This document shows, one piece after another, positions 9,032 to 23,288 of a stretch of DNA of 32,000 bases. The notes under the pieces were generated by a model that was not told the DNA's origin, did no database searches, and saw only the letters and a program-made list of their open reading frames with translations. The stretch is from Desulfobulbus propionicus DSM 2032 (GTDB taxonomy: Bacteria; Desulfobacterota; Desulfobulbia; Desulfobulbales; Desulfobulbaceae): positions 2,910,001 through 2,942,000 of the forward strand of contig NC_014972.1 of the NCBI RefSeq assembly GCF_000186885.1, read 5' to 3'. Both the position numbers and the translations under genes were made by a program. Positions within the stretch are counted from its first letter, which is position 1, and every line of letters starts with the position of its first letter.

Positions 9032-9060
9032 CCTCTCCCTTTTCCCCTGCAGGAGGCTGC

Positions 9061-9249
9061 ATGTCCCGACACCTGGCCTTGCTTGCGCTGGCGGCCTTCG
9101 CCTTTTCCGCCTGCTCTCCGACGGTAACGGTGGCTCCGCCCGACAAGCCAATCACCATCAACCTGAACGTCAAGATCGAACACGAGATCCGCGTCAAGGT
9201 GGAAAAGGAGCTGGAGAGCGTCATCAACCCGGAAAGCGGGCTGTTTTAA
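9061..9249 (+). CDS. ynbE: YnbE-family lipoprotein
   Basis: 62 aa. Lipobox LAAFAFSAC. The PITINLNVKIEHEIRVK core matches the E. coli YnbE core as I recall it. AGGAGG SD lies 5 nt upstream. Confidence 0.8.
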   Translation: MSRHLALLALAAFAFSACSPTVTVAPPDKPITINLNVKIEHEIRVKVEKELESVINPESGLF

Positions 9250-9262
9250 ACGGAGGATACCC

Positions 9263-9583
9263 ATGAAACGATGGATCATGACCGTGCTTTTTCTGTTGCT
9301 GTGCGGCCAAACCGCCCTTGCGCTCGATTTGCAGACGGCCAAGGCCCAAGGCCTGGTCGGCGAAACCCCCAGCGGTTATCTGGCCCAGGTACAGAGCGGC
9401 AACGGAGAGACAGCCCAACTGGTGCATTCCATCAATGCTCAGCGCAAACAGGAGTACGAAAAAATCGCCCAGCGCAACAAGACGTCCCTGCAGGCGGTCG
9501 AACAGCTGGCCGGCCAGCAGGCCATGGACAAGACGCCGGGCGGCCAATATATCCTGGTCAACGGCACCTGGACCAAGAAATAA
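9263..9583 (+). CDS. ydbL: YdbL / DUF1318 family periplasmic protein
   Basis: Signal peptide. AKAQGLVGETPSGYL and INAQRKQEYEKIAQRN motifs typical of DUF1318. Ends GTWTKK. Third member of the conserved triad. GGAGGA SD. Confidence 0.75.
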   Translation: MKRWIMTVLFLLLCGQTALALDLQTAKAQGLVGETPSGYLAQVQSGNGETAQLVHSINAQRKQEYEKIAQRNKTSLQAVEQLAGQQAMDKTPGGQYILVNGTWTKK

Positions 9584-9652
9584 CCGATGTGCGAGGGTGA
9601 CGAACCGCCGCTCCCCTTCCCGGCCCAATGTGCCGCTCCCACCACAATCAGC

Positions 9653-9681
9653 TTGACAGGATAAAACTATACGTTTAAGAT
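9653..9681 (+). promoter_or_regulatory. Putative sigma70 promoter giving a leaderless transcript for the ArsR-family gene
   Basis: TTGACA (9653-9658)-N17-TAAGAT (9676-9681). The A of ATG 9689 lies 7 nt after the -10 element. No SD-like purine run between them. Confidence 0.4.
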
Positions 9682-9688
9682 TTTCGAT

Positions 9689-10000
9689 ATGAAAACCAAC
9701 TACACCCGCACCCTGCCCGATGCCTGGAAACCGATGTCCCGGGTGTTCACCGCCCTGGGCGACGAGCACCGTCAGCGCATCCTCCTGTTGTTTGACCAGG
9801 GCGAACGGCTCAACGTGGGCCAGATCGCCGAGGTGTCCACGCTCTCCCGCTCCACCGTCTCCCACCACCTCAAGATCCTCCGCGAGGCCGAGGTGCTGGC
9901 CTCGGAGAAAATCGGCAAGGAGGTCTGGTACTGGATCAACTGCCCCTATCTGGAAACAGTGCTGACCAACGTGCTGGACTACATCCGCCTGATCAAATAA
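9689..10000 (+). CDS. ArsR/SmtB-family winged-helix transcriptional regulator (no canonical metal site seen)
   Basis: LGDEHRQRILLLF...LNVGQIAEVSTLSRSTVSHHLKILREAEVL...KEVWYWIN. Only one Cys (WINCPY) and no CXC motif in helix 3. Confidence 0.85.
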   Translation: MKTNYTRTLPDAWKPMSRVFTALGDEHRQRILLLFDQGERLNVGQIAEVSTLSRSTVSHHLKILREAEVLASEKIGKEVWYWINCPYLETVLTNVLDYIRLIK

Positions 10001-10071
10001 TTTTGTTCAACATGTCGAAATTCCTAAACTCATCAATCAATCGCTCCTGCCCATTCACGAGGAACCCTGCC

Positions 10072-12216
10072 ATGATGCGCTCGATTGTGATCGTTGTTCT
10101 CCGCGGCCTGTGCCGCCTGCTGTTCCGGGTCGATATCCAAGGAGCAGCCGCCGGATTCAACGCCGACCGGCTGCTGGTGGTCGCCAACCACGAGTCCCTG
10201 CTCGATGGCCTGCTGCTTGGCCTGTTCATCCCGATCAATCCAGTGTTCGTGGTCCATACCGCCGTGGCCAACAAACCTTTCTTCCGTCTCATCCTCTCCC
10301 TAGTCGATTATCTGGCCGTGGACCCGACCAACCCCATGGCCATGAAACAGGTGGTCCGCTTGCTGGAGGCCGGCCGCCCGGTGGTGATCTTCCCCGAGGG
10401 GCGGATCACCACCACCGGCAGCCTGATGAAGGTCTACGACGGTCCGGCCTTTGTCGCCGCGCGGACCGGAGCCACCATTCTGCCGGTGCGGCTGGACGGT
10501 CCGTCGCGCAGCTACTTCTCCCGCCTGTCCGGCAAATATCCCAAGGTCCTCTTTCCCCGCATCCGCCTCACCATCCTGCCGACCACGACCATTCCCCTGC
10601 CTTCGGCACCGACCGCCAAACTGCGCCGCCGTCTGGCCGGCGAGGCCATGCGCCGCCTGATGCAGGAGATGGTCTTTTCTTGCCGGCCGGCCCAGACCCT
10701 GTTTGCCGCCTTGTGCGACGCCGCCGAGATCTTTGGCCGCAACCGGCGGCTGCTCGAGGATGTCCGTCAAATCGAATACTCCTACAACGACCTGCTCAAG
10801 ATGGCCCTGCTCCTCAGCCGGCAGGTCGAGCGGATGACCGCGGTCGGGGAGCGGGTCGGCCTGCTGCTGCCCAACATGGCGCCAACGCTTGGCCTGCTGC
10901 TCGGCCTGACCGCCCGCCGCCGCATCCCAGCCATGCTCAACTACACCGCTGGTCTCGACGCCCTCCGGGCCGCCTGCACTGCCGCCGAAATCCGCACCGT
11001 ACTCACCTCGCGCGCCTTTGTCGCCCAGGCCAAGCTGGCCGACAAGCTGGCCGGTCTGCACGGGGTGCAGTTGGTCTATCTGGAGGATCTCAAGGCCAAC
11101 ACCCGTCTGGCCGACACCCTGTGGCTGCTCGCCTACGCGATCCATGCGCCCCGATCCCATGCTCTGCCCGCTTCGCCGGAAGATCCGGCGGTGATCCTCT
11201 TTACCTCGGGCTCCGAGGGTATGCCCAAGGGGGTGGTTCTGTCCCACCGGGCCCTCCTGGCCAACATCGCCCAGGTGCGAGCGGTGATCGATTTTTCCGT
11301 GGACGACAAGGTGCTCAACGCCATGCCGATCTTCCACTCCTTTGGCCTCACCGCCGGCACCCTGCTGCCGATACTCACCGGAGCGAGCCTCTTTCTCTAT
11401 CCAACGCCGCTGCACTACCGGGTCATTCCCGAATTGGCCTATGATCGCAACTGCACCGTGCTATTCGGCACATCCACCTTCCTCAACAACTACGCCCACC
11501 ACGCCCATCCCTATGATTTCTACCGGTTGCGCTATGTGGTGGCCGGGGCGGAGAAACTCTCCGAAGCGGTGCGCAGCCTGTGGTTCGAAAAATTCGGCAT
11601 CCGCATCTTCGAGGGCTACGGGACCACCGAAACCGCCCCGGTGCTGGCGGTGAACACGCCCATGGCCTACCGCACCGGCACGGTCGGCACCCTGCTGCCC
11701 GGCATCGAGGCCCGCCTGGTCGCTGTTGCCGGCGTCGAGCGGGGTGGCATCCTCCACGTACGCGGTCCGAACCTGATGAGCGGCTACCTCAAGGCCGACC
11801 GGCCCGGAGTGCTGCAGCCGCCGTCCTCCGAACTGGGCGAGGGCTGGTATGCAACCGGCGATGTGGTGGAGATCGATAGCGAGGGGTTTGTGCGCATTGT
11901 CGGCCGCATGAAGCGTTTTGCCAAGATCGCCGGCGAGATGATCAGCCTGGAGGTGGTGGAGCGATTGGCCGTGGCCGCCTCCCCGACCTGCAGCCATGCG
12001 GCCGTGAGCCAACCGGATGCCGCCAAGGGCGAAGCCCTGGTGCTCTTCACCACCGACCCGGCGCTCAGCCGCGACCAGTTGAGCACAGCGGCCAGGGAAC
12101 TGGGTGTTGCCGAACTGGCCGTGCCACGCACCATCCGGCCGGTCGAATCGCTGCCTCTAATGGGCACCGGCAAGGTCGATCACCTCGCCCTGCAACGGTT
12201 GGCGGCATCTGCCTGA
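10072..12216 (+). CDS. aas: Bifunctional 2-acylglycerophosphoethanolamine acyltransferase / acyl-ACP synthetase (Aas)
   Basis: N-terminal PlsC-type acyltransferase (NHESLLDG = HX4D; FPEGRITTTG). C-terminal adenylate-forming domain (ILFTSGSEGMPKGVVLSH, GYGTTE, GDVVEIDSEGF, GRMKRFAKIAGE). The track starts at TTG 10003. ATG 10072 has a GAGGAA SD 8 nt upstream. Confidence 0.85.
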   Translation: MMRSIVIVVLRGLCRLLFRVDIQGAAAGFNADRLLVVANHESLLDGLLLGLFIPINPVFVVHTAVANKPFFRLILSLVDYLAVDPTNPMAMKQVVRLLEAGRPVVIFPEGRITTTGSLMKVYDGPAFVAARTGATILPVRLDGPSRSYFSRLSGKYPKVLFPRIRLTILPTTTIPLPSAPTAKLRRRLAGEAMRRLMQEMVFSCRPAQTLFAALCDAAEIFGRNRRLLEDVRQIEYSYNDLLKMALLLSRQVERMTAVGERVGLLLPNMAPTLGLLLGLTARRRIPAMLNYTAGLDALRAACTAAEIRTVLTSRAFVAQAKLADKLAGLHGVQLVYLEDLKANTRLADTLWLLAYAIHAPRSHALPASPEDPAVILFTSGSEGMPKGVVLSHRALLANIAQVRAVIDFSVDDKVLNAMPIFHSFGLTAGTLLPILTGASLFLYPTPLHYRVIPELAYDRNCTVLFGTSTFLNNYAHHAHPYDFYRLRYVVAGAEKLSEAVRSLWFEKFGIRIFEGYGTTETAPVLAVNTPMAYRTGTVGTLLPGIEARLVAVAGVERGGILHVRGPNLMSGYLKADRPGVLQPPSSELGEGWYATGDVVEIDSEGFVRIVGRMKRFAKIAGEMISLEVVERLAVAASPTCSHAAVSQPDAAKGEALVLFTTDPALSRDQLSTAARELGVAELAVPRTIRPVESLPLMGTGKVDHLALQRLAASA

Positions 12217-12254
12217 CACAACCTCTTCCGATCATTCAGTCCAAAGGCCACACC

Positions 12255-14135
12255 ATGAGTTCACAATTCGGTTTGCTCAAGACCCCGCGTTTCCTGCCCT
12301 TCTTCATCACCCAGTTTCTCGGCGCCTTCAACGACAACCTGTTCAAGAACGCCCTGATCGTGCTGCTCACCTTCCAGGCGGCCAGTTGGACCAGCCTCAA
12401 GGCCGAGATCCTGGCCAACCTGGCGGCGGGCATCTTCATCCTGCCCTTTTTCCTCTTCTCCGCCACCGCCGGTCAGTTGGCGGACAAGCACGACAAGGCC
12501 ACCCTCGCCCGGCTGGTCAAGGTGCTGGAGATGGCGATCATGGCCGTGGCCGCCGCCGGCTTCTGGCTGCACAGCCTCCCCCTGCTGCTCGGGGCCCTGT
12601 TTCTGCTCGGCTGCCATTCCACCCTGTTCGGGCCGGTCAAGTACGCCATCCTGCCCCAGCACCTCCATGAGGACGAGCTGGTCGGCGGCAACGCCCTGAT
12701 CGAGGCCGGCACCTTTGTCGCCATCCTCATCGGCACCCTGACCGGTGGCCTGTTGGCCGGTGCGGTCACCCACCCGGTGTGGGTCGCCGCTGGGGGCTTG
12801 CTGGTGGCCTTTGTCGGTTACCTGAGCAGCCGGGGGATCCCCACCGCACCACCGCCGGCCCCGGAGCTGCGCGTCAATCCCAATCCGATCACCGAAACCT
12901 GGCGCAACATTGCCTTTGCCCGCGAAAACCGCACCGTGTTCCTCTCCATCCTGGGTATCTCCTGGTTCTGGCTCTACGGCGCCCTGTTCCTGGCCCAGTT
13001 TCCGGCCTATGCCAAGAATGTGCTCGGTGGCGCGGAATCCACGGTCACCCTGCTGCTGGCCATCTTCACCATCGGTATCGGCATCGGCTCGCTGCTGTGC
13101 GAACGGCTGTCCGGCAAACGGGTGGAGATCGGACTGGTGCCCTTTGGTTCCATCGGCCTGACCCTGTTCGGCCTGGATCTGGCCCTGGCCTCTCCCGCCG
13201 GGCCGATTGCCGGTGCTCCGCTCGGTCTGGGAATGCTGCTCGGTCAGTGGTCCACCTGGCGAATCCTGGTGGATCTGGTGCTGATCGGCATGTTCGGCGG
13301 CTTTTTCATCGTCCCCCTCTATGCCCTGGTGCAGGTGCGCAGCGCGACTGAACATCGAGCGCGGATCATCGCCGCCAACAATATCCTCAACGCCCTGTTC
13401 ATGGTGGTGGGAGCCGTGGCCGCCGGTGCCCTGCTGGGCGCGGGCATGACCATTCCCTGGCTGTTTGCCGTGGCAGCGGTGTGCAACGCCGTGGTCGCCC
13501 TCTATATCTACGGCCTGATCCCCGAGTTCCTCCTCCGCTTCCTCGCCTGGCTGCTGGTGCACGGTGCCTATCGGCTGGAGAAGCGGGGCATCGACCATAT
13601 TCCCGTGGAGGGGCCGGCGGTGCTGGTGTGCAACCATGTCAGTCTGGTGGACGTGTTGGTGATCATGGCCGCCTCGCCACGGCCGGTCCGCTTTTTGCTC
13701 GACGAACGCTTCTTCCGCCTGCCGATCCTCGGCAGTCTACTGCGCCGCAGCGGTGCCATCGGCGCGGACCTGAGCGATGCGCACTCCGCCTCCCTGGTGC
13801 GAGTCCAGGAGGAGGCCGCCGCCACCCTGGCCGCGGGCAACCTGGTGGCCCTGTTCCCGGAGGTGACCCACACACCGGACGGCCACCTGCAACCCTTCCG
13901 CCCGATCGTCACGCCCATCGTTGCCCGCATCCCGGCACCGGTCATTCCCATGGCGCTGCAGGGCTTGTGGGGCAGCTTCTTTTCCCGGATCGAGGGGAGG
14001 GCCTTGGGCCGCCCTTTCCGCCGGGGGCTGCTGTCACGCATCGCGATAGTGATTGGAGCGCCATTGACCGCTGACGAGGCCACGCCCGAGCGGCTGCGAC
14101 AGGCGGTGCAGGATTTGCGAGGAGAATGTCGTTGA
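12255..14135 (+). CDS. lplT: Lysophospholipid transporter LplT (MFS) fused to a C-terminal PlsC-type acyltransferase domain
   Basis: N-terminus FLPFFITQFLGAFNDNLFKNALIVLL and about 12 predicted TM segments typical of LplT (about nt 12255-13520). The C-terminal roughly 200 aa carry VCNHVSLVDVLV (HX4D, nt 13631-13651) and FPEVTHTPDG. Confidence 0.8.
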   Translation: MSSQFGLLKTPRFLPFFITQFLGAFNDNLFKNALIVLLTFQAASWTSLKAEILANLAAGIFILPFFLFSATAGQLADKHDKATLARLVKVLEMAIMAVAAAGFWLHSLPLLLGALFLLGCHSTLFGPVKYAILPQHLHEDELVGGNALIEAGTFVAILIGTLTGGLLAGAVTHPVWVAAGGLLVAFVGYLSSRGIPTAPPPAPELRVNPNPITETWRNIAFARENRTVFLSILGISWFWLYGALFLAQFPAYAKNVLGGAESTVTLLLAIFTIGIGIGSLLCERLSGKRVEIGLVPFGSIGLTLFGLDLALASPAGPIAGAPLGLGMLLGQWSTWRILVDLVLIGMFGGFFIVPLYALVQVRSATEHRARIIAANNILNALFMVVGAVAAGALLGAGMTIPWLFAVAAVCNAVVALYIYGLIPEFLLRFLAWLLVHGAYRLEKRGIDHIPVEGPAVLVCNHVSLVDVLVIMAASPRPVRFLLDERFFRLPILGSLLRRSGAIGADLSDAHSASLVRVQEEAAATLAAGNLVALFPEVTHTPDGHLQPFRPIVTPIVARIPAPVIPMALQGLWGSFFSRIEGRALGRPFRRGLLSRIAIVIGAPLTADEATPERLRQAVQDLRGECR

Positions 14136-14151: not shown

Positions 14152-15849
14152 TTACATCCGGCCGTGGCGGATAATCGAGAGCAGCAGCCAGAACCCCATG
14201 ACGCCGGCGAACAGAAAACCGAGCAGGCCGATGACCGGAATGCTGTGCCAGTGGGGGGGGATGTCGGAGAGGACGATCAGCGAACTGCCGACAATGAGGG
14301 CGGCCAGAACAATGGCAAAGCTGATCCGGTTGGACACCCGGTCCAGGGTGGAGTCCAAGGACTTCAGTCCCCGGTGCTCGAACTCCAGCCGCATCCGGCC
14401 GCTGCGCAGCTGGGAGAGGATGGTGCGGAGCTCGTCGGGCAGGTCGCGCAGCAGCTGCAGGTAAGAGGTGCCGGTGTGGGACAGTTCCTCGGCGATCCGT
14501 CCGGGCTGCATCCGCCCCAACCGGATCTTGCGCATGAACGGTTTGGCCAGGCGGATCAGTTCGAGCTTGGGGTCGAGCATCAACCCCACCCCCTCCACCG
14601 TGCTCAGGGCCTTCATCATCAGATAGAGGCTTGGCTTGAAGGAGAGTTTGTGCCGTGATACCAGGTCGAGCAGATCCTGAAGAATCTTGGCGGCCTCTAG
14701 ATCCTCCAGCGGCCGATAGAGGTACATGTCCATCAGACTGCCCAGATCGCGGCCCAGATTTTCCCGGTCGACCTCGCCCAGTTGCACCGTCACCTTGAGC
14801 ACGCCGCTGACCACCTGCTGCTCGTTGCCGGCCACCAAGTCGAGCACCAGGTCGGTGAAATCCTCTCGATCCTTGAGTGACAGCCGCCCCATCTGCCCGA
14901 AGTCAATAAAGCAGAGCACATTGTCCGGCAGGACAAACACGTTGCCCGGATGGGGATCGGCGTGGAAAAAACCGTGGACAAAGATCTGCTCCATCACCAG
15001 ATTGGCCCCGCGCTCGGCGATCAACGGCAGGTCATAGCCCTGCTCGCGCAGCAGATGCACTTTGGATGACTTGATGCCGATCACATATTCCATCACCAGA
15101 ATGCGATCGGTGCTCAGCTCTGGATAGACCAAGGGCACATGGATGGCCGGGTTGCCCTCGAACTGGCGGGCAAAGCGCTGGATGTTGGCCAGTTCGATGG
15201 AAAAATCGATCTCCCGGCTGAGGCTGCGGGCAAACTCGTGGACAATGGCCATGGGCTGATGCCCCTGGACCTCCTCCAGGTACTGCTCCATCAGCTCGGC
15301 GATGTGGGCCAGGATCTCCAGATCCACGGCGATGACGTTTTCGATCCCGGGCCGTTGTACCTTGACCACCACCTCGGCGCCGTTGTCCATGCGCGCCCGG
15401 TGTACCTGGCCAATGGAGGCCGCGGCCAAGGGCTCGGTGTCGAAATAATGGAAAATCTCCTCCGGCGCCCGCCCCAGTTCCTCCTTGATGATCGCCTGCA
15501 CCTCGTCGATGCCGAAAGCGGCGATATCATCCTGGAGCTTGGCCAATTCGTCAAGGAAATCGGCGGGAATCAAGTCGGGCCGGGTGGAGAGCAGTTGGCC
15601 GAGTTTGATAAAGGTTGGCCCCAACTCCTCGAAGACCAGCCGCAGCCGCTCCGGCCGGGACAGCCGCGCGATCTGCTCGCGCGGCTTGCGGTTGATCATC
15701 TGCAGTCCGGACTCCAGGTACTGGTCGATGTGCAGACGGTCAACCAGATCATTGAAGCCGTACTTGAACAGCACCCGCAGGATGCGGTGATAGCGGTTGA
15801 GGTGGCGGTAGGTCCGGCCGATGGCGCCGAGCTTGCGGATACTGAACAT
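14152..15849 (-). CDS. ubiB: ABC1/UbiB-family atypical kinase with C-terminal TM helices
   Basis: RLRLVFEELGPTFIKLGQLLSTRPDL, AAASIGQVHRA, VVVKVQRPG, FFHADPHPGN, IDFG. Two hydrophobic helices at the C-terminus. Confidence 0.9.
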   Translation of the reverse strand: MFSIRKLGAIGRTYRHLNRYHRILRVLFKYGFNDLVDRLHIDQYLESGLQMINRKPREQIARLSRPERLRLVFEELGPTFIKLGQLLSTRPDLIPADFLDELAKLQDDIAAFGIDEVQAIIKEELGRAPEEIFHYFDTEPLAAASIGQVHRARMDNGAEVVVKVQRPGIENVIAVDLEILAHIAELMEQYLEEVQGHQPMAIVHEFARSLSREIDFSIELANIQRFARQFEGNPAIHVPLVYPELSTDRILVMEYVIGIKSSKVHLLREQGYDLPLIAERGANLVMEQIFVHGFFHADPHPGNVFVLPDNVLCFIDFGQMGRLSLKDREDFTDLVLDLVAGNEQQVVSGVLKVTVQLGEVDRENLGRDLGSLMDMYLYRPLEDLEAAKILQDLLDLVSRHKLSFKPSLYLMMKALSTVEGVGLMLDPKLELIRLAKPFMRKIRLGRMQPGRIAEELSHTGTSYLQLLRDLPDELRTILSQLRSGRMRLEFEHRGLKSLDSTLDRVSNRISFAIVLAALIVGSSLIVLSDIPPHWHSIPVIGLLGFLFAGVMGFWLLLSIIRHGRM

Positions 15850-15857
15850 GCGCGATA

Positions 15858-16166
15858 TTACTCGCCGTCACTCCGGTTGGTGGCCACCTGCAGTTCCTCG
15901 ATCTTGCGCTGCAACTCGGCGATTTCGTCCTTGGTGGCCAAATTGAGCTGCTTGATCCGGTCCTCGACCCGCTTATTGATCCACAGATCCAGCTGATCCT
16001 TGGCCTTTTCGGATTTGCGCAACAGGTCATCGACGAACTGTTTGCCCTCTTCCTGGGACATCTTGCCCTTTTCAATCAGTTCGCCCTTGAGCTCCTCGAT
16101 CTTTTCCTTGGTGAGAAAGGCCGCGCCGATTCCGGCATAGACTATGTTTTTCAGCATCTCTTTCAT
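15858..16166 (-). CDS. Phasin-family / COG3937-like coiled-coil protein
   Basis: MKEMLKNIVYAGIGAAFLTKEKIEELKGELIEKGKMSQEEGKQFVDDLL...ATKDEIAELQRKIEELQ. The track start is 16226. I prefer ATG 16166 because GGAGGAG lies directly upstream (ATGGAGGAGATCATG). Its stop is 8 nt before the ubiB start. Confidence 0.55.
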   Translation of the reverse strand: MKEMLKNIVYAGIGAAFLTKEKIEELKGELIEKGKMSQEEGKQFVDDLLRKSEKAKDQLDLWINKRVEDRIKQLNLATKDEIAELQRKIEELQVATNRSDGE

Positions 16167-16232
16167 GATCTCCTCCATGGGTGCAAAAACGTGGACTATA
16201 CTGGGCGCGCTCGCAGAGCCGCCCATCCCGTG

Positions 16233-16604
16233 TCAATTTTTGTCGACATCCCGATGGGCGACCTCCGCCCGCAGCCCCTGCCGCTCAAGAAGGGCGCGCA
16301 GGTACTCGACCACGGCCACCGAGCGGTGTTTGCCGCCGGTACATCCCACCGCCACGGTCACCGACTCCCGCCCTCCCGCCGCGTACTCATTCAACAAAAA
16401 AATCAGCAGGGGTTCAAGCAGGGCAAGAAACCGTGCGCCGCTCTGGTTGCCGAGCACATAGCTGGCCACCCGTGGCTCCCTGCCGGTAAAGGGTTGCAGC
16501 TCCGGCACCCAAAACGGGTTGGGCAAGAAACGGACATCCCAGACCAGATCGGCCGCGGCCGGACCATGCTTGAACCCAAAGGAATAGAGGGAAATTTTCA
16601 CCAT
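16233..16604 (-). CDS. Stand-alone RapZ C-terminal domain protein (no P-loop N-terminal domain)
   Basis: 123 aa. SFGFKHGPAAADLVWDVRFLPNPFW and VAVGCTGGKHRSV align with about residues 152-281 of E. coli RapZ (FESFGFKHG..DVRFLPNPHW..IGCTGGKHRSV) as I recall that sequence. The upstream 143 nt are non-coding and are followed by the ClC 3' end. Confidence 0.75.
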   Translation of the reverse strand: MVKISLYSFGFKHGPAAADLVWDVRFLPNPFWVPELQPFTGREPRVASYVLGNQSGARFLALLEPLLIFLLNEYAAGGRESVTVAVGCTGGKHRSVAVVEYLRALLERQGLRAEVAHRDVDKN

Positions 16605-16646
16605 AGCCTCATGAATGGCTGCGAAAAGGGGGACAGGATATAATGC

Positions 16647-16674
16647 AGTATAAGCACCGCTTGTATTTGTTCAA
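16647..16674 (-). promoter_or_regulatory. Putative sigma70 promoter for the rapZ-CTD/phasin/ubiB genes
   Basis: The minus strand reads TTGAAC (16674-16669)-N16-TATACT (16652-16647), about 40 nt upstream of ATG 16604. Confidence 0.45.
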
Positions 16675-16687
16675 TCTTTGTTCAATC
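16666..16687. repeat. Perfect 11-bp tandem direct repeat TTTGTTCAATC x2 (GATTGAACAAA x2 in gene orientation)
   Basis: Read directly: 16666-16676 and 16677-16687 are identical. The promoter-proximal copy supplies the -35 TTGAAC. Confidence 0.9.
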
Positions 16688-16747
16688 GCAAAAAGCGTTT
16701 TTTATGAATCAGCTCGGCCGGATAGCCGGGAGCTGCCCGGCTTTGCC

Positions 16748-18529
16748 TCAGCTCGCCGAACAGATCATACGGATGGACTCGGCCCGTTCGTTGATGCCGC
16801 GCTTGAGCATCTCATGGTTGTAGGCGGCGATCACATCCTGGCGTTTGAGCATGCCCAGGACCCAAGGTTCCTCCAGGGTCTCCACCACAGGGATCTCGTC
16901 GATCCCCTTGATGTCAAAAAGCTTCATCGCTTCATAGCAATTGGTGTCCGGGGTGAGCATGATCACGTCGCGGGTACAGATGGATCCCACCAGGTGGCAG
17001 ACACGCTCTTCCTCGCTGTGGAGGACAGTCTTCACATCCTGCATCGACACCACCCCGACCATCATGCCGTGGGCGTTGATCACCGGAAAATAGAAGCTGT
17101 TGCGGGCAAAGCGAAACAGTTCGAGCAAATGATTGATATTTGCGTTTTCACTAATAAAATCGACATCTTCGGTGATCGCCTTGCCCACTCGGATCGACTT
17201 CATGATCGCCACCTCGCGGCCTTCGTGAATATCGATCCCCTCGCGGGTGAAATCCACCGTGTCCATGGAGTCGCCGTACAACCAGGAAGAGGTCACGGTC
17301 CCCAGGACGGCGGTCAGCATCACCGGGATGATGATCATGTAGTTGCCGGTCATCTCGAACAACAAAAAGATGGCGGTCAGTGGCGCGTGGGTGGTGGCGG
17401 CGAGGAACGCGCCGATCCCCACCGTGGCATAGGCGCCGGCGGTGGCCGTGTAGCCGGGAAGGAAATGGTGGACAATGCCGCCAAAGGCGCCGCCAAGCAC
17501 GGCGCCAATGAACAGGGCCGGAGCAAAAACGCCGCCGGCGCCGCCCGAGCCCAGGGTGATGGCGGTTGCCAGCGATTTGAGGAAGACCAGAAGCATCATC
17601 CGCCAGACCAGGGTGTCGCCCGCCAGGGCCTTGGCAATATAGTCGTAGCCGTTGCCCATGACCTGGGGAAAGAAGAGGGCGATGCACCCCACCAGCAGGG
17701 CACCGAAGATCGGCTTGATTTGCGGGTGGAGCGGGATTCGCTGAAACTGGTCGCGAATCAGATAAAAAAAGCGAATGTGGAGCACCGCCGTCGCCCCGAC
17801 GACAACGGCCATGACCGTGTACAACGGCAATTCGACAAAGGGGTTGACGATCGAATAGTCGGGGATGGGAAAAGCCGGAATCTCGCCATAATAGGCGCGG
17901 GAGACCACGGTGGACAGGGCCGAGGCGATCACCAAGGCGGCAAAGGAGGATATCTCATAGGTGCCGAGCAGCACGATCTCCGCCGCGAAAAACATCCCGG
18001 CCAGGGGCGCGTTGAAGATACCGGCAATACCGCCGGCGCATCCGGCGGCGATGTAGACCTTCATGCGCTTGCCGGACACCCGGAAACGCTGCCCAACCTG
18101 CGACCCCAGGGCGCCGCCGATCTGGGCAATCGGCCCTTCGACACCGGCCGAGTTGCCGGAACCGATGGTCAGGGCGGTGCTGATGATCTTGATGAAGATG
18201 GTGCGCGCCCGGATCACGCCATTCTCCAGATTGACCCGGCGAAGGAAATTGGTGAACCCGTAGCCGTTGACCTCGCCGGGAAAGGCGAGGGAAAGGGGGA
18301 TGAGCAGAGTGGCGCCGAGCATTGGCAGCAGCGGCAAAAGCAGTTTCCGCCACCCGCCCTGGCCAATACCGAGAGCCTCGTAGCCCCAGACAAAAATGAG
18401 CTCATGGATGAGATCAACCGCCTCGCGGAAGACAATGATGGCCAAGCCGGACATCACGCCGATGAAGGCGGCGATCAGGATCATCCGCGCCCGCTCGCCC
18501 GGCAAAAACGCCTTGACCCTGGTCAGCAT
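16748..18529 (-). CDS. ClC-family chloride channel / H+-Cl- antiporter with C-terminal CBS-domain pair
   Basis: Selectivity-filter-like motifs GSGNSAGVEGP and GGVFAPALFIGA. About 10 or more hydrophobic helices. The C-terminal roughly 150 aa form a CBS pair (VGKAITEDVDFISEN..., GMMVGVVSMQDV, IDEIPVVE). GGAG SD. Confidence 0.9.
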   Translation of the reverse strand: MLTRVKAFLPGERARMILIAAFIGVMSGLAIIVFREAVDLIHELIFVWGYEALGIGQGGWRKLLLPLLPMLGATLLIPLSLAFPGEVNGYGFTNFLRRVNLENGVIRARTIFIKIISTALTIGSGNSAGVEGPIAQIGGALGSQVGQRFRVSGKRMKVYIAAGCAGGIAGIFNAPLAGMFFAAEIVLLGTYEISSFAALVIASALSTVVSRAYYGEIPAFPIPDYSIVNPFVELPLYTVMAVVVGATAVLHIRFFYLIRDQFQRIPLHPQIKPIFGALLVGCIALFFPQVMGNGYDYIAKALAGDTLVWRMMLLVFLKSLATAITLGSGGAGGVFAPALFIGAVLGGAFGGIVHHFLPGYTATAGAYATVGIGAFLAATTHAPLTAIFLLFEMTGNYMIIIPVMLTAVLGTVTSSWLYGDSMDTVDFTREGIDIHEGREVAIMKSIRVGKAITEDVDFISENANINHLLELFRFARNSFYFPVINAHGMMVGVVSMQDVKTVLHSEEERVCHLVGSICTRDVIMLTPDTNCYEAMKLFDIKGIDEIPVVETLEEPWVLGMLKRQDVIAAYNHEMLKRGINERAESIRMICSAS

Positions 18530-18846
18530 GGCTGCTCCGAGCTGGTGTCCATGACGGGCCGGGGAGGAAGCGTGGGAAGGATGGCGCGTGAACAGTCGCT
18601 CGGCTCACCGGAACACCCAGCCAGAACCGTCACTCGCCCGAATGTATCCATATTGCCCGTCCTCCACTCTCTGCTGGCCTGGCGGCCCTGGTCGTTGCGC
18701 CGATCTCCTTTTCCGCCGTTCGAAAAAGAAGAATGGAACATAACAAAAACCCCTGGCGAATTAAACTGGTTTCTGGCCGCCGCCTGTTCCCGGGCAGACA
18801 CCCGCTCTCAGACGAATCCTCATCCAATGAAACGGCCCGAGGATTC

Positions 18847-18875
18847 TTGTGCTATGGCTGCCTTTTTCGTATAGT
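18847..18875 (+). promoter_or_regulatory. Putative sigma70 promoter for the small acidic protein gene
   Basis: TTGTGC (18847-18852)-N17-TATAGT (18870-18875). It would give a leader of about 60 nt to ATG 18942. Confidence 0.35.
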
Positions 18876-19510: not shown

Positions 19511-19680
19511 ATCATGAGGCAGAGAACAACTGAACCGTAAACAGCATCACCAGAGAGAAGACCAAAGCGGGTAAGTACACTTTTTGAGGTTCTGCGGAAC
19601 CTTTTTCATAGCGTTCATCTTAACCGTTTCCGGCAGTTCCTGCCGGCAAACACCAACCACCGTGTAAGGAGAATGATCTT

Positions 19681-22600
19681 ATGTCGCGAAAAATGGTCAC
19701 CATTGACGGAAACCAGGCATGTACGCATGTTGCGTATGCCACAAGTGAAGTCATAACAATCTATCCCATTACGCCATCCTCTCCGATGGCTGCCGAGTCC
19801 GACGCCAAAGCCAACGCCAAACAAGAGAATATCTGGGGATCCATCCCGGTTATTACCCAGATGCAGTCCGAGGCCGGTGTCGCCGGTTCCATCCACGGTT
19901 CTCTGGGCGCCGGTGCCCTGTGCACCACCTTCACCGCTTCCCAGGGTCTGCTGCTGCTGACCCCCAACATGTACAAGATCGCCGGTGAGTTGTTGCCCAC
20001 GGTTTTCCATGTCACCGCCCGCGCCATCGCCTGCCAGGGTCTGTCTATCTTCGGTGATCACGGCGACGTCATGGCCGTCCGCCAGACCGGTTGGGCCATG
20101 CTCTGCTCCCAGGACGTGCAGGAAGCCCAGGATATGGCACTGATTGCCACCTCTTCCACCCTGCAGTCCTCCATTCCGTTCCTCCACTTCTTCGACGGGT
20201 TCCGGACCTCCCACGAGGTCATGAAGATCGAGCAGCTGACCATGGACGACATGCGCGCCATGATCGACGAGGACCTGATCATCAAGCACCGCGAGCGCGC
20301 CCTGACCCCGGATCGCCCCACCATCGGCGGTACGGCCCAGAACCCGGACGTCTACTTCATCGGCCGCGAGACCGTAAATAAATTCTATGACGCCGTTCCG
20401 GGTATCGTCCAGGCCACCATGGACAAATTCGCCGCCCTGACCGGTCGCCAGTATCACCTGTTCGACTACATCGGCGCCCCGGATGCCACCGACGTCATCG
20501 TCATCATGGGTTCCGGCGCCCTGACCGTTGCCTCCACCGTCGAGCACCTGATTGCCGAGGGCAAGAAGGTTGGTCTGGTCATCGTTCGTCTGTTCCGTCC
20601 GTTTGATCCGAAAGCCATGGTCAACGCCCTGCCGCCCACCGTTGAGCGCATCACCGTGCTTGACCGCACCAAAGAGCCGGGCTCCAACGGCGATCCGCTC
20701 TATCTCGACGTCCGCACCGCCGTCACCGAGGCTGCCGAGGCCAACCCCACCATGTTCGTCCCGGTTATCCTCAACGGCCGTTACGGTCTGGGCTCCGCCG
20801 AGTTCACCCCGGCCATGGTCAAAGCCGTGTTCGACAACATGGCATCGCTTGCGCCGAAAAAGAAATTCTGCGTTGGCCCGAACGACGACCTGGCCTTCAC
20901 TAGCCTCAAGTATGACAAGTCCTTCAACATCGAAGGCAGCGACGTGTTCCGCGCCCTGTTCTACGGTCTGGGTTCCGACGGTACCGTTGGTGCCAATAAG
21001 AACACCATCAAGATCATCGGTACCGAAACCGATAACTCGGCCCAGGGCTACTTCGTCTACGACTCCAAAAAGTCCGGCTCCATGACCGTTTCGCATCTGC
21101 GTTTCGGCAAGAATCAGATCGTTGCCCCGTATCTGATCAACAAGGCCAACTTCGTCGCCTGTCACAACCCGGCCTTCCTTGACACCTACGACATGTTGGC
21201 CAACCTGGAGACCGGCGGCACCTTCCTGCTGACCACCACCTTCACCAAGGACGAGATCTGGGACCACCTGCCCTCCCTGGTGCAGAAGCAACTGATCGAG
21301 AAGAAGATCAAATTCTACATCATCGACGCGGTCAAACTCGGCCTGGCCCTTGGCCTCGGCGCTCGCATCAACATGATCATGCAGACCGCCTTCTTCGCCA
21401 TCTCCGGCATCATCAGCAAGGATGAGGCGATCAAGTCGATCAAGAAGGCAATCAAAAAGACCTACGGCATCAAGGGCGACAAGGTCGTCAACATGAACTA
21501 CGCCGCGGTTGACGGCGCCATCGAAAACATCGTCGAGGTCAAGGTTCCCAAGAAAATCACCGGCCACGAGATGCCGCCGATCGTTTCCGACGAAGCACCT
21601 GAGTTCGTCAAGACCGTCACCGCCAAGATGATGGAAGGTCACGGCGAGGACATCCCGGTTTCCCAGTTCCCGAACGACGGCCGCTGGCCGACCGCCACCT
21701 CCCAGTGGGAGAAGCGCAACATCGCCGTTCAGGTTTCTTGTTGGGATGCCGAGACCTGCATCCAGTGCGGCCGCTGTTCGCTGGTTTGCCCGCATGGCTG
21801 TATCCGCATGAAGGTCGCCACCCCTGAAGCCCTGGCCGCCGCCGGCGCCGATGCCTCCTTCAAGACCGCCGATGCGGTAGGCAAGGAGTTCAAGGACATG
21901 AAGTTCACCATGCAGATCTCCACGGCCGACTGCTGCGGCTGTACGCTGTGCGTCACCGTTTGCCCGGCTCGCAAGAAGGATGCCGAGGGCAACAAGACCG
22001 AGATCCGCGCGCTGTCCATGGTGATGAACACCGAGGAGATCAAGCAGGAATCCCTGAAGAACTGGAAGACCTTCCTGGCCCTGCCCGAGGTTGACGACAG
22101 CCTGATCAACGTCGGCACCATCAAGGGCAGCCAGTTCAAACGGCCGCTGTTCGAGTTCTCCGGCGCCTGCGCTGGCTGCGGCGAGACCCCGTACATCAAG
22201 CTGGTCACCCAGATGATCGGCGACCGTATGTTGGCCTCCAACGCCACCGGTTGTTCCTCGATCTACTCCGGCAACCTGCCCACCACCCCGTACTGCAAGC
22301 GCGCCGACGGACGTGGGCCGGCCTGGTCCAACTCGCTGTTCGAGGATAACGCCGAGCACGGCTTGGGTATGCGTCAAGCGGTCGACAAACTGGCCAGCCA
22401 GGCGGTCGAACTGTTGGATGCGGCTGTCAAGGAAGGTCTGGTCGCCAAAGAGTTGGCCGACGCCCTGCTCAACGCCCCGCAGAAGGAGCAGGCCGAGATC
22501 GAGGCCCAGCGCGCTCGCGTGGCCGAGTTGAAGGCGGCCCTCGAGGGCAAGAAAGACGCCATCGCCAAACGGCTCTATCATGTGGCCGACTACCTGGTGA

Positions 22601-23256
22601 AAAAATCCGTCTGGATCATCGGTGGCGACGGTTGGGCCTATGATATCGGCTACGGCGGTGTTGACCATGTTCTGGCTTCCGGCAAGAACGTCAATATCCT
22701 GGTGCTGGATACCGAGGTCTACTCCAACACCGGTGGTCAGATGTCCAAGTCCACCCCGCGTGCAGCCGTGGCTCAGTTTGCCGCCGGCGGCAAGAGCATG
22801 CCCAAGAAGAACATGGGCCTGATCTTCTCCACCTTCGGCACGGTCTATGTTGCCCGCATTTCCCTCGGCGCCAACCCGCAGCAGGCGATCAAGGCCATTC
22901 AGGAGGCCGAGGCCTATGACGGTCCGTCCCTGATCATCGCCTATGCCCACTGCATCAACCACGGCATCAACATGGCCATGGGTCTGGAGCAGCAGAAGAA
23001 GGCCGTCGAGTGCGGGCACTGGTCGTTGTTCCGTTACAACCCGGCGCTTGAGGCCGAAGGCAAGAACCCGCTGATCATCGACTCCAAAGAGCCGACCATC
23101 AGCTTTGCCGACTACGCGATGAACGAAAACCGTTACCGGATGCTCAAGCTGTCCAATCCGACAATGGCTGACGAGTTGATGGCACAGTCGCAGAAAGACG
23201 TCGACAAGTCCTGGAAATTGCTGAAAGGCTGGGCCAAGGCGCTTGAGACCGAATAA
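19681..23256 (+). CDS. nifJ: Pyruvate:ferredoxin (flavodoxin) oxidoreductase, homodimeric single-chain type
   Basis: 1191 aa. N-terminus MVTIDGNQA..HVAY..SEVI.IYPITPSS. Two ferredoxin-type 4Cys clusters (CIQCGRCSLVCP, CCGCTLCVTVCP). TPP domain (GGDGWAYDIGYGG, GCGETPYIKL). AAGGAG SD 9 nt upstream. Confidence 0.95.
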   Translation: MSRKMVTIDGNQACTHVAYATSEVITIYPITPSSPMAAESDAKANAKQENIWGSIPVITQMQSEAGVAGSIHGSLGAGALCTTFTASQGLLLLTPNMYKIAGELLPTVFHVTARAIACQGLSIFGDHGDVMAVRQTGWAMLCSQDVQEAQDMALIATSSTLQSSIPFLHFFDGFRTSHEVMKIEQLTMDDMRAMIDEDLIIKHRERALTPDRPTIGGTAQNPDVYFIGRETVNKFYDAVPGIVQATMDKFAALTGRQYHLFDYIGAPDATDVIVIMGSGALTVASTVEHLIAEGKKVGLVIVRLFRPFDPKAMVNALPPTVERITVLDRTKEPGSNGDPLYLDVRTAVTEAAEANPTMFVPVILNGRYGLGSAEFTPAMVKAVFDNMASLAPKKKFCVGPNDDLAFTSLKYDKSFNIEGSDVFRALFYGLGSDGTVGANKNTIKIIGTETDNSAQGYFVYDSKKSGSMTVSHLRFGKNQIVAPYLINKANFVACHNPAFLDTYDMLANLETGGTFLLTTTFTKDEIWDHLPSLVQKQLIEKKIKFYIIDAVKLGLALGLGARINMIMQTAFFAISGIISKDEAIKSIKKAIKKTYGIKGDKVVNMNYAAVDGAIENIVEVKVPKKITGHEMPPIVSDEAPEFVKTVTAKMMEGHGEDIPVSQFPNDGRWPTATSQWEKRNIAVQVSCWDAETCIQCGRCSLVCPHGCIRMKVATPEALAAAGADASFKTADAVGKEFKDMKFTMQISTADCCGCTLCVTVCPARKKDAEGNKTEIRALSMVMNTEEIKQESLKNWKTFLALPEVDDSLINVGTIKGSQFKRPLFEFSGACAGCGETPYIKLVTQMIGDRMLASNATGCSSIYSGNLPTTPYCKRADGRGPAWSNSLFEDNAEHGLGMRQAVDKLASQAVELLDAAVKEGLVAKELADALLNAPQKEQAEIEAQRARVAELKAALEGKKDAIAKRLYHVADYLVKKSVWIIGGDGWAYDIGYGGVDHVLASGKNVNILVLDTEVYSNTGGQMSKSTPRAAVAQFAAGGKSMPKKNMGLIFSTFGTVYVARISLGANPQQAIKAIQEAEAYDGPSLIIAYAHCINHGINMAMGLEQQKKAVECGHWSLFRYNPALEAEGKNPLIIDSKEPTISFADYAMNENRYRMLKLSNPTMADELMAQSQKDVDKSWKLLKGWAKALETE

Positions 23257-23288
23257 ACCGTCTTCGGACGCATGATGGAACAAAAAAG

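What the first reader, a model, noticed from the sequence alone, without database searches (positions are those of the whole stretch)
16233..16604. Stand-alone RapZ C-terminal domain gene outside the usual rpoN-ptsN context
RapZ normally has about 284 aa: an N-terminal P-loop kinase-like domain plus a C-terminal PFK-like domain that binds the sRNA GlmZ and a sugar-phosphate ligand. It is usually encoded in the rpoN/hpf/ptsN/rapZ/npr cluster. This 123-aa ORF aligns only to the C-terminal domain (SFGFKHG...DVRFLPNPFW...GCTGGKHRSV). It has its own promoter and SD, and the upstream DNA is non-coding, so it is not a truncated pseudogene remnant. It heads an operon with a phasin-like protein and a UbiB kinase. 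A natural CTD-only RapZ would separate RNA or ligand binding from the NTPase function and suggests an undescribed adaptor role.
Basis: partly seen in the sequence, partly recalled or inferred. Interest (0 to 1): 0.65.

Follow-up and report, generated by a model that had tools for sequence, protein, structure and literature searches.

The report
Stand-alone RapZ C-terminal domain protein
This is a real, well-conserved small gene that encodes only the ligand-binding C-terminal half of the regulator RapZ; in Desulfobulbus-type bacteria it always sits next to a phasin-like gene and a UbiB/ABC1 kinase-like gene, and it most likely acts as a phospho-metabolite sensor rather than an RNA adaptor.

Summary
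Window 16233-16604 (-) is a 123-aa ORF that matches the whole Pfam RapZ C-terminal domain (PF22740, E 5.5e-40). It has no P-loop domain and no room for one. It is not a remnant or an artefact. More than 120 protein clusters of about 122 aa share 57-80% identity with it, and related loci reach down to 49%. Named members are Desulfobulbus or Desulfobulbaceae. All RapZ-family invariant residues are kept, and the AlphaFold model (pLDDT 96.6) overlays E. coli RapZ-CTD (TM 0.91). The order RapZ_C / phasin-like / ABC1-UbiB held in every locus with enough flanking DNA (27/27 and 23/23 metagenome loci). A sister clade pairs or fuses the same domain with an Fe-S nitroreductase, and one protein fuses it to a SLOG domain. 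The nearest full-length RapZs lie in lptB-rpoN-ptsN clusters.

The RNA-adaptor idea is weakly supported. The enterobacterial basic RNA-binding tail is missing and the family is slightly acidic. The phosphate/GlcN6P pocket (C-T-G-G-K/R-H-R-S) is invariant. My best reading is a dimeric phospho-metabolite sensor working with different partner modules. I could not test whether the genome also has a full-length rapZ. Novelty: new variant of a known kind. Interest: moderate.

The parts
16233..16604 (-). Stand-alone RapZ C-terminal domain gene (123 aa). Contains the invariant C88-T-G-G-K-H-R94-S95 phosphate-binding loop, K12/H13, the dimer strand L20-V-W-D23 and W32.
   Evidence: ORF. PF22740 over its full length, E 5.5e-40. 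NCBIfam RapZ model positions 161-278 only. 41% identity to E. coli RapZ-CTD 5O5S. AF2 model pLDDT 96.6 and TM 0.91 to 5O5S. Residue conservation.
16605..16747 (-). Non-coding spacer between the ClC gene and the RapZ_C gene. It holds a GAGG Shine-Dalgarno (two bases between it and the ATG) and a sigma70-like match, TTGAAC-16-TATACT, at 16674-16647.
   Evidence: Sequence. Promoter scan, 9/12 match. No Rfam family. The spacer is not conserved in sequence among relatives and is 10-1172 nt long.
15858..16166 (-). Phasin-like small coiled-coil protein, probably 102 aa (the mechanical ORF extends to 16226). Always the next gene after RapZ_C.
   Evidence: Pfam Phasin E 6e-07 and NCBIfam phasin-related domain NF047773 at 43.2 bits (cutoff 35). 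GGAGGAG lies 5 nt before the ATG at 16166. Homologues are 102-104 aa. Present in 27/27 group-A loci with enough downstream DNA.
14152..15849 (-). ABC1/UbiB-family atypical kinase-like protein (565 aa) with hydrophobic C-terminal segments. It starts 8 nt after the phasin-like stop.
   Evidence: PF03109 ABC1, E 6.7e-77. TIGR01982 UbiB at 425 bits, below its equivalog cutoff of 487. Present in 23/23 group-A loci with at least 900 nt downstream. Median phasin-to-UbiB gap is 9 nt.
16748..18529 (-). ClC chloride channel with CBS domains (593 aa). It is the usual but not obligatory upstream neighbour on the same strand.
   Evidence: PF00654 and PF00571. Upstream in 30/31 group-A metagenome loci. Absent in L003/L004 and separated by inserted genes in L083/L086.

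Best explanation
The gene encodes a functional, naturally N-domain-less member of the RapZ family. It is a self-folding protein of about 122 aa that probably forms a homodimer. It keeps the conserved phosphate/sugar-phosphate pocket of the RapZ C-terminal domain but not the enterobacterial RNA-binding tail.

I infer that it senses a phosphorylated metabolite, with GlcN6P or a related amino-sugar or nucleotide-sugar phosphate as the obvious candidate. I further infer that it passes this state on by protein-protein contact rather than by presenting an sRNA to RNase E. In Desulfobulbaceae the likely partner or co-regulated module is the invariably adjacent phasin-like protein plus ABC1/UbiB atypical kinase. 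That module handles membrane lipid or isoprenoid quinone. The pairing would couple envelope-precursor status to membrane-lipid or quinone homeostasis.

Shown here: domain identity, fold, residue conservation, lineage-wide loss of the N-domain and gene linkage.
Inferred: dimerisation, the ligand, and the functional link to UbiB/phasin.
For: - Identity and fold.
- Purifying selection: 31 invariant columns among 77 sequences with 69% mean column identity. Every residue that is invariant in full-length RapZ C-domains is also invariant here (S166, F167, G168, G172, D178, D182, R184, N188, P189, G200, G246-C-T-G-G250, H252-R-S-V255, H276, R277).
- Pocket residues T248, G249, H252 and R253, plus C247 and K170, are needed for E. 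coli RapZ activity (PMC9841335). All are invariant here. Position H190 is Y/F, as in most non-enterobacterial full-length RapZs.
- The isolated E. coli CTD dimerises, and it binds GlcN6P about 10-fold more tightly than the full-length protein (KD 10 nM) (PMC5737377, PMC7073468). The dimer strand is kept as L-V-W-D.
- The N-domain loss is old and lineage-wide.
- The linkage to phasin-like and ABC1/UbiB is invariant in the Desulfobulbus-type clade.
- The same domain is paired or fused with other modules: Fe-S nitroreductase and cpYpsA SLOG. This is the behaviour expected of a portable sensor or ligand module.
Against: - There is no experimental datum for this protein.
- Ligand identity is extrapolated from E. 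coli at 41% identity.
- Gene adjacency does not prove physical or regulatory interaction. The sister clade lacks the UbiB link entirely, so the partner is not universal.
- Gaps of 41-211 nt between RapZ_C and the phasin-like gene allow separate transcription.
- C247 invariance, and the report that GlcN6P appears chemically transformed in the E. coli pocket (PMC9841335), fit an enzyme as well as a sensor.
- A full-length RapZ or a separate P-loop partner elsewhere in the genome was not excluded.
Confidence: 0.4

Rival explanations
1. Catalytic module. The domain is an enzyme that uses the invariant Cys in a strand / C-X5-R-S / helix phosphate-binding loop. This is formally the signature of Cys-dependent phosphatases such as PTP, LMW-PTP and ArsC. 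It would transform a phosphorylated sugar or nucleotide. The neighbours (ABC1 kinase-like protein, nitroreductase, SLOG or P-loop domain) would then be pathway partners rather than regulatory targets.
For: G-C-T-G-G-[KR]-H-R-S is invariant in 120/120 stand-alone and 66/66 full-length C-domains, apart from the K/R position. In the model C88 ends strand 81-88 and R94 opens helix 94-108. The pocket binds sulfate or malonate in E. coli crystals through backbone amides and R253. C247S is inactive and GlcN6P density looks 'chemically transformed' (PMC9841335).
Against: No catalytic activity of a RapZ C-domain has been published in the papers I read. Foldseek finds no phosphatase among the structural neighbours, only RapZ and then weak PFK or kinase matches. 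The motif match is my own reading of the sequence and was not tested.
Confidence: 0.2
2. Split RapZ. The P-loop N-domain is encoded as a separate gene elsewhere, and the two polypeptides reassemble into a RapZ-like tetramer.
For: W191, which mediates the N-domain/C-domain contact in E. coli (PMC5737377), is 120/120 invariant here but only 16/66 in full-length C-domains. The whole genome could not be searched.
Against: No N-domain was found in the window or within 10 kb in any of about 90 related loci. Two N-domain searches returned no Desulfobulbus-named protein and no hit on the large Desulfobulbus contigs, though the lists are capped at 120. The motif P231-x-Y-x-x-E-G-K238, typical of full-length C-domains, has changed.
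Confidence: 0.12
3. It is an RNA-binding adaptor that presents an sRNA to a ribonuclease or sequesters RNA, freed from NTPase control.
For: The E. coli CTD alone binds GlmY/GlmZ. K170, R184, R238, K251 and the pocket residues that touch the RNA backbone are conserved.
Against: K270, R282 and K283 are absent. K194, R211, R223 and R266 are mostly acidic or neutral. Mean net charge is -1.8 and pI 6.5, against +5 and 9.5 for the E. coli CTD. The literature restricts the RNA-binding determinant and GlmY/GlmZ to Enterobacteriaceae. No Rfam RNA was found in the window. The E. coli CTD alone does not support RNase E cleavage in vitro.
Confidence: 0.1
4. A decaying remnant or an annotation or assembly artefact with no function.
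For: None beyond its small size.
Against: Constant length, full domain coverage, invariant functional residues, conserved synteny across 49-100% identity, and an identical protein on nine independent contigs.
Confidence: 0.01

Closest known systems
E. coli RapZ (YhbJ), C-terminal domain (PDB 5O5S; full length 5O5O/5O5Q; complexes 8B0I/8B0J)
   Same: Same fold (TM 0.91, rmsd 1.7 A, 41% identity). Same pocket residues (C247, T248, G249, K251, H252, R253), plus K170 and H171. Dimer strand retained. The isolated E. coli CTD is known to fold, dimerise and bind GlcN6P on its own.
   Different: No P-loop N-domain. No basic C-terminal tail (K270, R282, K283). H190 is F/Y. Acidic rather than basic surface positions. 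Not in the rpoN operon. No GlmY/GlmZ expected outside Enterobacteriaceae.
Full-length RapZ/YvcJ/Rv1421 family of other phyla (PF03668 + PF22740), including the nearest relatives P0154 and P0123 from Desulfobacterales-type bacteria
   Same: The C-domain is 50-57% identical and all family-invariant residues are shared. Y/F at position 190 and the lack of a basic tail are also shared.
   Different: Those proteins carry the UDP-sugar/NTP-binding P-loop domain (PMC11229554, PMC7525490). They sit in lptB-rpoN-(ptsN)-rapZ clusters or, from general knowledge, in yvcJ-glmR-whiA clusters. The stand-alone clade has a 1-aa deletion at position 175, F181W, fixed W191 and P224, and changes at 231, 236, 238 and 239.
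Sister NTD-less RapZ_C proteins of other Desulfobulbales (L005 is a Desulfocapsaceae MAG), including Fer4-nitroreductase-RapZ_C and cpYpsA(SLOG)-RapZ_C fusions
   Same: Same W-D-V-R-F-L-P-N-P-Y-W signature, same size, no P-loop domain.
   Different: No phasin-like/UbiB neighbours. Instead an Fe-S nitroreductase is adjacent in 20 loci or fused in 5 loci plus L005. One representative carries a SLOG domain fusion.
ubiJ-ubiB arrangement of ubiquinone-producing proteobacteria (recalled from general knowledge, not tested here)
   Same: A small lipid-associated accessory protein is encoded immediately upstream of an ABC1/UbiB gene.
   Different: The small protein here is phasin-like, not SCP2-type. 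The UbiB homologue scores below both NCBIfam UbiB equivalog cutoffs. From general knowledge, sulfate reducers of this group use menaquinone. No RapZ-like gene is part of the classical operon.

Membership tests
RapZ C-terminal domain family (Pfam PF22740) | Full-length match to the domain HMM above the gathering score | tested here: met
   136.8 bits against a cutoff of 27; profile positions 2-121 of 121.
RapZ C-terminal domain family (Pfam PF22740) | PFK-like alpha/beta fold of the E. coli RapZ-CTD | tested here: met
   AF2 model pLDDT 96.6. Foldseek top hit 5O5S, TM 0.91, rmsd 1.7 A.
RapZ C-terminal domain family (Pfam PF22740) | Conserved phosphate/metabolite pocket (C247, T248, G249, H252, R253; H190 in E. 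coli) | tested here: met
   C-T-G-G-K/R-H-R-S is invariant in 120/120. Position 190 is Y/F/H, as in full-length homologues.
RNase adaptor RapZ (NCBIfam NF003828 equivalog; E. coli-type function) | Two-domain architecture with the N-terminal Walker A/B P-loop domain (PF03668) | tested here: not met
   Only model positions 161-278 match; 138.6 bits, below the cutoff of 244. The ORF is closed by an in-frame stop upstream. No N-domain in any frame of the window or related loci.
RNase adaptor RapZ (NCBIfam NF003828 equivalog; E. coli-type function) | Basic C-terminal RNA-binding determinant (K270, K281, R282, K283) | tested here: not met
   K270 is L/V/Y. The protein ends one residue after K281, so there is no R282/K283 equivalent.
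RNase adaptor RapZ (NCBIfam NF003828 equivalog; E. coli-type function) | Cognate sRNAs GlmY/GlmZ in the genome | not testable with these tools
   No Rfam family hit in the 32-kb window. The whole genome is not available. The literature restricts GlmY/GlmZ to Enterobacteriaceae.
RNase adaptor RapZ (NCBIfam NF003828 equivalog; E. coli-type function) | Location in the lptB-rpoN-hpf-ptsN-rapZ cluster (typical, not strictly defining) | tested here: not met
   None of these genes appears among the window's large ORFs. The nearest full-length relatives do sit there.
RNase adaptor RapZ (NCBIfam NF003828 equivalog; E. coli-type function) | Homotetramer built from N-domain and C-domain dimers | not testable with these tools
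   The C-domain dimer strand is conserved (L-V-W-D). A tetramer via N-domain dimers is impossible without that domain. No multimer modelling was available.
Cys-dependent phosphatases (C-X5-R-[ST] P-loop) | Strand / C-X5-R-S/T / helix signature | tested here: met
   C88-TGGKH-R94-S95 lies between strand 81-88 and helix 94-108.
Cys-dependent phosphatases (C-X5-R-[ST] P-loop) | Fold membership and catalytic activity | tested here: not met
   No PTP, LMW-PTP or ArsC structure among the Foldseek hits. Activity is not testable here. I therefore do not file it as a member; the resemblance is only a lead.

The most novel reading that the evidence does not exclude
The RapZ C-terminal domain is an autonomous, ancient phospho-metabolite-binding, and possibly Cys-catalytic, module. 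Its primordial job is metabolite sensing or turnover, not RNA presentation. In Desulfobulbales it has shed the P-loop domain and been rewired to alternative partners: ABC1/UbiB plus a phasin-like protein, an Fe-S nitroreductase, or a SLOG domain. In Desulfobulbus this would form a previously unknown link between amino-sugar/envelope-precursor status and membrane quinone or lipid homeostasis through a UbiB-family protein.
Probability: 0.25. Interest if true: 0.65.

Novelty: new variant of a known kind. Interest (0 to 1): 0.45.

Why it matters
RapZ is understood mechanistically only in E. coli, where the RNA-adaptor role depends on enterobacterial extras: GlmY/GlmZ and a basic tail. What the family does in other phyla is an open question. 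The authors of the E. coli work themselves speculated that metabolite-dependent signalling by the C-domain is the primordial function.

A lineage that has kept only the C-domain under strong purifying selection is a natural experiment on that question. It has also re-partnered the domain with three unrelated modules. It isolates the conserved pocket from both the NTPase domain and the RNA tail. It also gives concrete, testable partners (ABC1/UbiB, whose own function in bacteria is poorly defined, and an Fe-S nitroreductase).

The finding is not categorically new. The domain-only architecture is already visible in databases (UniRef 'RapZ C-terminal domain-containing protein'; NCBI labels it 'RNase adapter RapZ', which overstates what is known).

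Tried and rejected
1. Full-length rapZ or a separate P-loop gene in the same genome.
- An N-domain query from the closest full-length relative gave 16 hits, none Desulfobulbus.
- A 13-sequence N-domain profile gave 7261 hits, of which only the best 120 are shown. None is Desulfobulbus-named or lies on a contig of 3.25, 3.38, 3.85 or 4.78 Mb.
- This is inconclusive, not negative.

2. Source genome. A look-up of the window protein did not reveal the source record. The contig size of 3,851,869 bp matches my recollection of Desulfobulbus propionicus DSM 2032, but this is unverified.

3. Literature. Searches for a described stand-alone RapZ C-domain, for RapZ in Desulfobulbus and for a phasin-UbiB link found nothing relevant.

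4. Anti-phage defence context. No PADLOC hit for RapZ_C, phasin-like, UbiB or ClC.

5. Regulatory RNA. No Rfam family in the window.

6. Recent truncation or pseudogene. Rejected by the constant length and conservation. Homologues called at 130-161 aa only carry unconserved N-terminal over-extensions from upstream start codons.

7. Conserved promoter upstream of RapZ_C. The spacers do not align, so a promoter could be neither confirmed nor excluded.

Full report
**1. Observation**

The minus strand carries an ATG-initiated ORF of 123 aa at 16233-16604. It is closed upstream by an in-frame stop, so it cannot be longer. The translation (MVKISLYSFGFKHG...DVRFLPNPFW...GCTGGKHRSV...AHRDVDKN) matches Pfam PF22740, the RapZ C-terminal domain, over positions 2-121 of 121 (E 5.5e-40, 136.8 bits, cutoff 27). 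Against the NCBIfam RapZ equivalog model it covers only positions 161-278 of 278 and scores 138.6 bits, below the cutoff of 244.

The upstream gene is a ClC/CBS channel at 16748-18529 on the same strand. It ends 143 nt before the start codon, which leaves no room for a 150-aa P-loop domain. A RapZ N-domain HMM run without filters finds nothing in any frame of the window. The same protein is found on nine independent contigs from different assemblies.

**2. A conserved family, not a remnant**

The best 120 protein clusters related to it are all 121-161 aa long and carry PF22740 only. They are 57-80% identical to the window protein. Where a source names them, they come from Desulfobulbus. The variants of 130-161 aa differ only by unconserved N-terminal extensions from upstream start codons.

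Two Desulfobulbaceae MAGs with proteins 55% and 49% identical are also closed by stop codons just upstream of the domain.

A DNA-pattern scan of JGI metagenomes for the clade signature W-D-V-R-F-L-P-N-P-[YF]-W matched 101 stretches, of which 80 were held as loci. Only one of the 80 has a RapZ N-domain.

Among 77 aligned members, 31 columns are invariant and mean column identity is 69%.

An AlphaFold2 model has mean pLDDT 96.6. It superposes on the crystal structure of the isolated E. coli RapZ C-domain (5O5S) with TM 0.91 and rmsd 1.7 A.

**3. Residues kept and residues lost**

I aligned 120 stand-alone proteins and 66 C-domains of full-length RapZ representatives against the E. coli numbering.

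Kept:
- Every residue invariant in the full-length set is also invariant in the stand-alone set. These are S166, F167, G168, G172, D178, D182, R184, N188, P189, G200, G246-C247-T248-G249-G250, H252-R253-S254-V255, H276 and R277.
- This set includes the sulfate/malonate/putative GlcN6P pocket. It also includes C247 and K170, whose substitution inactivates E. coli RapZ (PMC9841335; PMC5737377).
- H190 is Y/F here (H in 14/120). Y/F is also the commonest state in full-length homologues.

Lost:
- The E. coli RNA-binding determinants are largely missing. K270 is L/V/Y, and the protein ends one residue after K281, so R282 and K283 have no equivalent.
- K194, R211 and R223 are mostly E or D.
- Mean net charge of the family is -1.8 (pI 6.5), against +5 (pI 9.5) for the E. 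coli C-domain. The window protein itself is +2.
- This agrees with the published statement that the metabolite site is widely conserved while the RNA-binding domain is restricted to Enterobacteriaceae (PMC7073468).

Specific to this clade:
- a one-residue deletion at position 175
- F181W in the dimer strand
- an invariant W191 (the N-domain/C-domain contact residue in E. coli)
- a fixed P224
- replacement of the P231-x-Y-x-x-E-G-K motif

**4. Gene context**

Downstream on the same strand lie two genes.
- A phasin-like coiled-coil protein. The mechanical ORF is 15858-16226. The likely start is 16166, which gives 102 aa, as in all relatives, with GGAGGAG 5 nt upstream.
- An ABC1/UbiB-family protein at 14152-15849, starting 8 nt later (PF03109, E 6.7e-77). 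It scores below both UbiB equivalog cutoffs.

The order RapZ_C / phasin-like / ABC1 recurs widely.
- It is present in every Desulfobulbaceae locus examined individually: L001, L003, L004, L083, L084/85, L086 and L188.
- Among 34 metagenome loci of this type, it is present in 27/27 with at least 450 nt downstream (phasin-like) and in 23/23 with at least 900 nt downstream (ABC1).
- Median gaps are 72 nt from RapZ_C to phasin-like and 9 nt from phasin-like to ABC1.

The ClC gene is upstream in 30/31 of those loci. It is absent in L003/L004 and separated by inserted genes in L083/L086. The ClC-to-RapZ_C gap ranges from 10 to 1172 nt, with a median of 65 nt.

In the window a 9/12 sigma70-like match (TTGAAC-16-TATACT, 16674-16647) and a GAGG Shine-Dalgarno precede the gene. 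The spacers of relatives do not align. Whether RapZ_C heads its own transcript or is co-transcribed with ClC is therefore open. The scan predicted no terminator-like site on the minus strand within the triad.

The wider window is rich in envelope-lipid genes: YdbH-like, Aas-like and LplT-like-acyltransferase.

**5. Evolutionary setting**

A neighbour-joining tree of C-domains places the Desulfobulbaceae proteins in one clade. Its sister group contains three kinds of protein.
- Other short proteins of 130-138 aa.
- A Desulfocapsaceae protein in which the domain follows, in frame, a 4Fe-4S + nitroreductase module (L005, 486 aa).
- A cpYpsA (SLOG, PF12694) + RapZ_C fusion (P0155).

In the 46 metagenome loci of this second type there is no phasin/UbiB link.
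- The same Fe-S nitroreductase gene is directly upstream in 20 loci.
- It is fused in frame in 5 loci. One fusion of 456 aa was verified by Pfam.
- 12 loci have other neighbours, 8 are too short to judge, and 1 is a full-length RapZ.

The nearest full-length relatives are P0126 and P0154. The N-domain relatives of P0154 are named Desulfobacteraceae or Desulfosarcina. P0154 and a second full-length representative, P0123, both lie in lptA-lptB-rpoN-(ptsN)-rapZ clusters.

The simplest reading is that an ancestor of Desulfobulbales lost the P-loop domain from a canonical rapZ and the gene moved out of the rpoN cluster. This is an inference from a distance tree of a 120-residue domain.

**6. Mechanism**

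Established knowledge covers three points. The isolated E. coli C-domain folds and dimerises through strand 179-182. It binds GlcN6P with a KD of 10 nM, about ten-fold tighter than the full-length protein. It releases RNA in response to GlcN6P (PMC5737377, PMC7073468).

The protein here keeps the pocket and the dimer strand but not the RNA tail. My best-supported explanation (confidence about 0.4 for the mechanism, above 0.95 for identity) is a dimeric phospho-metabolite sensor that acts by protein contacts. The co-conserved phasin-like/ABC1 module is the likely partner in Desulfobulbaceae.

The rivals are as follows.
- A Cys-dependent enzyme (0.2). The invariant C-X5-R-S loop between a strand and a helix is formally the phosphatase P-loop signature. 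C247S is inactive in E. coli and GlcN6P appeared chemically transformed in the pocket. Against this, no phosphatase appears among the structural neighbours.
- A split RapZ with a separately encoded N-domain (0.12). It is prompted by the invariant W191 and not excluded, because the whole genome could not be searched.
- A non-functional remnant (0.01).

**7. What could not be done**

The presence or absence of a full-length rapZ, a separate PF03668 gene, or GlmY/GlmZ-like RNAs elsewhere in the genome was not testable.
- The two N-domain searches list only the top hits.
- The source record is not exposed.

Literature searches found no description of a natural stand-alone RapZ C-domain.

**8. Verdict**

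This is a real, conserved, N-domain-less RapZ variant with a firm gene association. It is a new variant of a known kind. It is of moderate interest because it isolates the conserved, poorly understood core of the RapZ family and names testable partners. The RNA-adaptor interpretation is not supported by the sequence evidence.

Noticed in passing
L005 8933-10393; metagenome loci L098, L103, L120, L128, L143: In-frame fusion proteins of about 456-486 aa: 4Fe-4S dicluster + nitroreductase + RapZ C-domain. In 20 further loci the same nitroreductase is a separate gene directly upstream of a stand-alone RapZ_C.
   Followed up: partly
P0155 (representative protein, 307 aa): Fusion of a circularly permuted YpsA SLOG domain (PF12694, E 6e-54) with the RapZ C-domain, inside the sister clade of the Desulfobulbus proteins.
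   Followed up: no
window 16323-16346 (codons for C88-S95): The family-invariant C-T-G-G-K/R-H-R-S forms a strand / C-X5-R-S / helix loop, the formal signature of Cys-dependent phosphatases. I did not find this noted in the RapZ papers I read. It fits the reported C247S defect.
   Followed up: partly
window 6983-14135 (+): A run of envelope-lipid genes converging on the UbiB gene: YdbH-like intermembrane phospholipid transport protein (6983-9031), Aas-like acyltransferase + AMP-binding protein (10003-12216), and an MFS (LplT-like) + acyltransferase fusion (12255-14135). In relatives YdbH/Lipoprotein_19/DUF1318 directly follow UbiB.
   Followed up: no
window 15858-16226 (-): The mechanical ORF of 122 aa for the phasin-like protein is probably over-extended. 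The ATG at 16166 has GGAGGAG 5 nt upstream and gives the 102 aa seen in all relatives and called on identical DNA elsewhere.
   Followed up: yes
window 16643-18874 (+) and 19615-23283 (-): Very long ORFs (743 and 1222 aa) antisense to the ClC and PFOR genes. The composition of their translations suggests shadow ORFs of GC-rich coding DNA, not genes.
   Followed up: no
window 19681-23256 (+): A pyruvate:ferredoxin oxidoreductase (1191 aa) is syntenic with the ClC/RapZ_C block in all Desulfobulbus-type loci seen. An HD-domain gene lies between PFOR and ClC in several relatives but was not found in the window.
   Followed up: no
one search hit table: NCBI names several of these 122-aa proteins 'RNase adapter RapZ', and JGI names them 'UPF0042 nucleotide-binding protein' or 'Predicted P-loop-containing kinase', although they have no P-loop domain. 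The annotation is over-transferred.
   Followed up: yes
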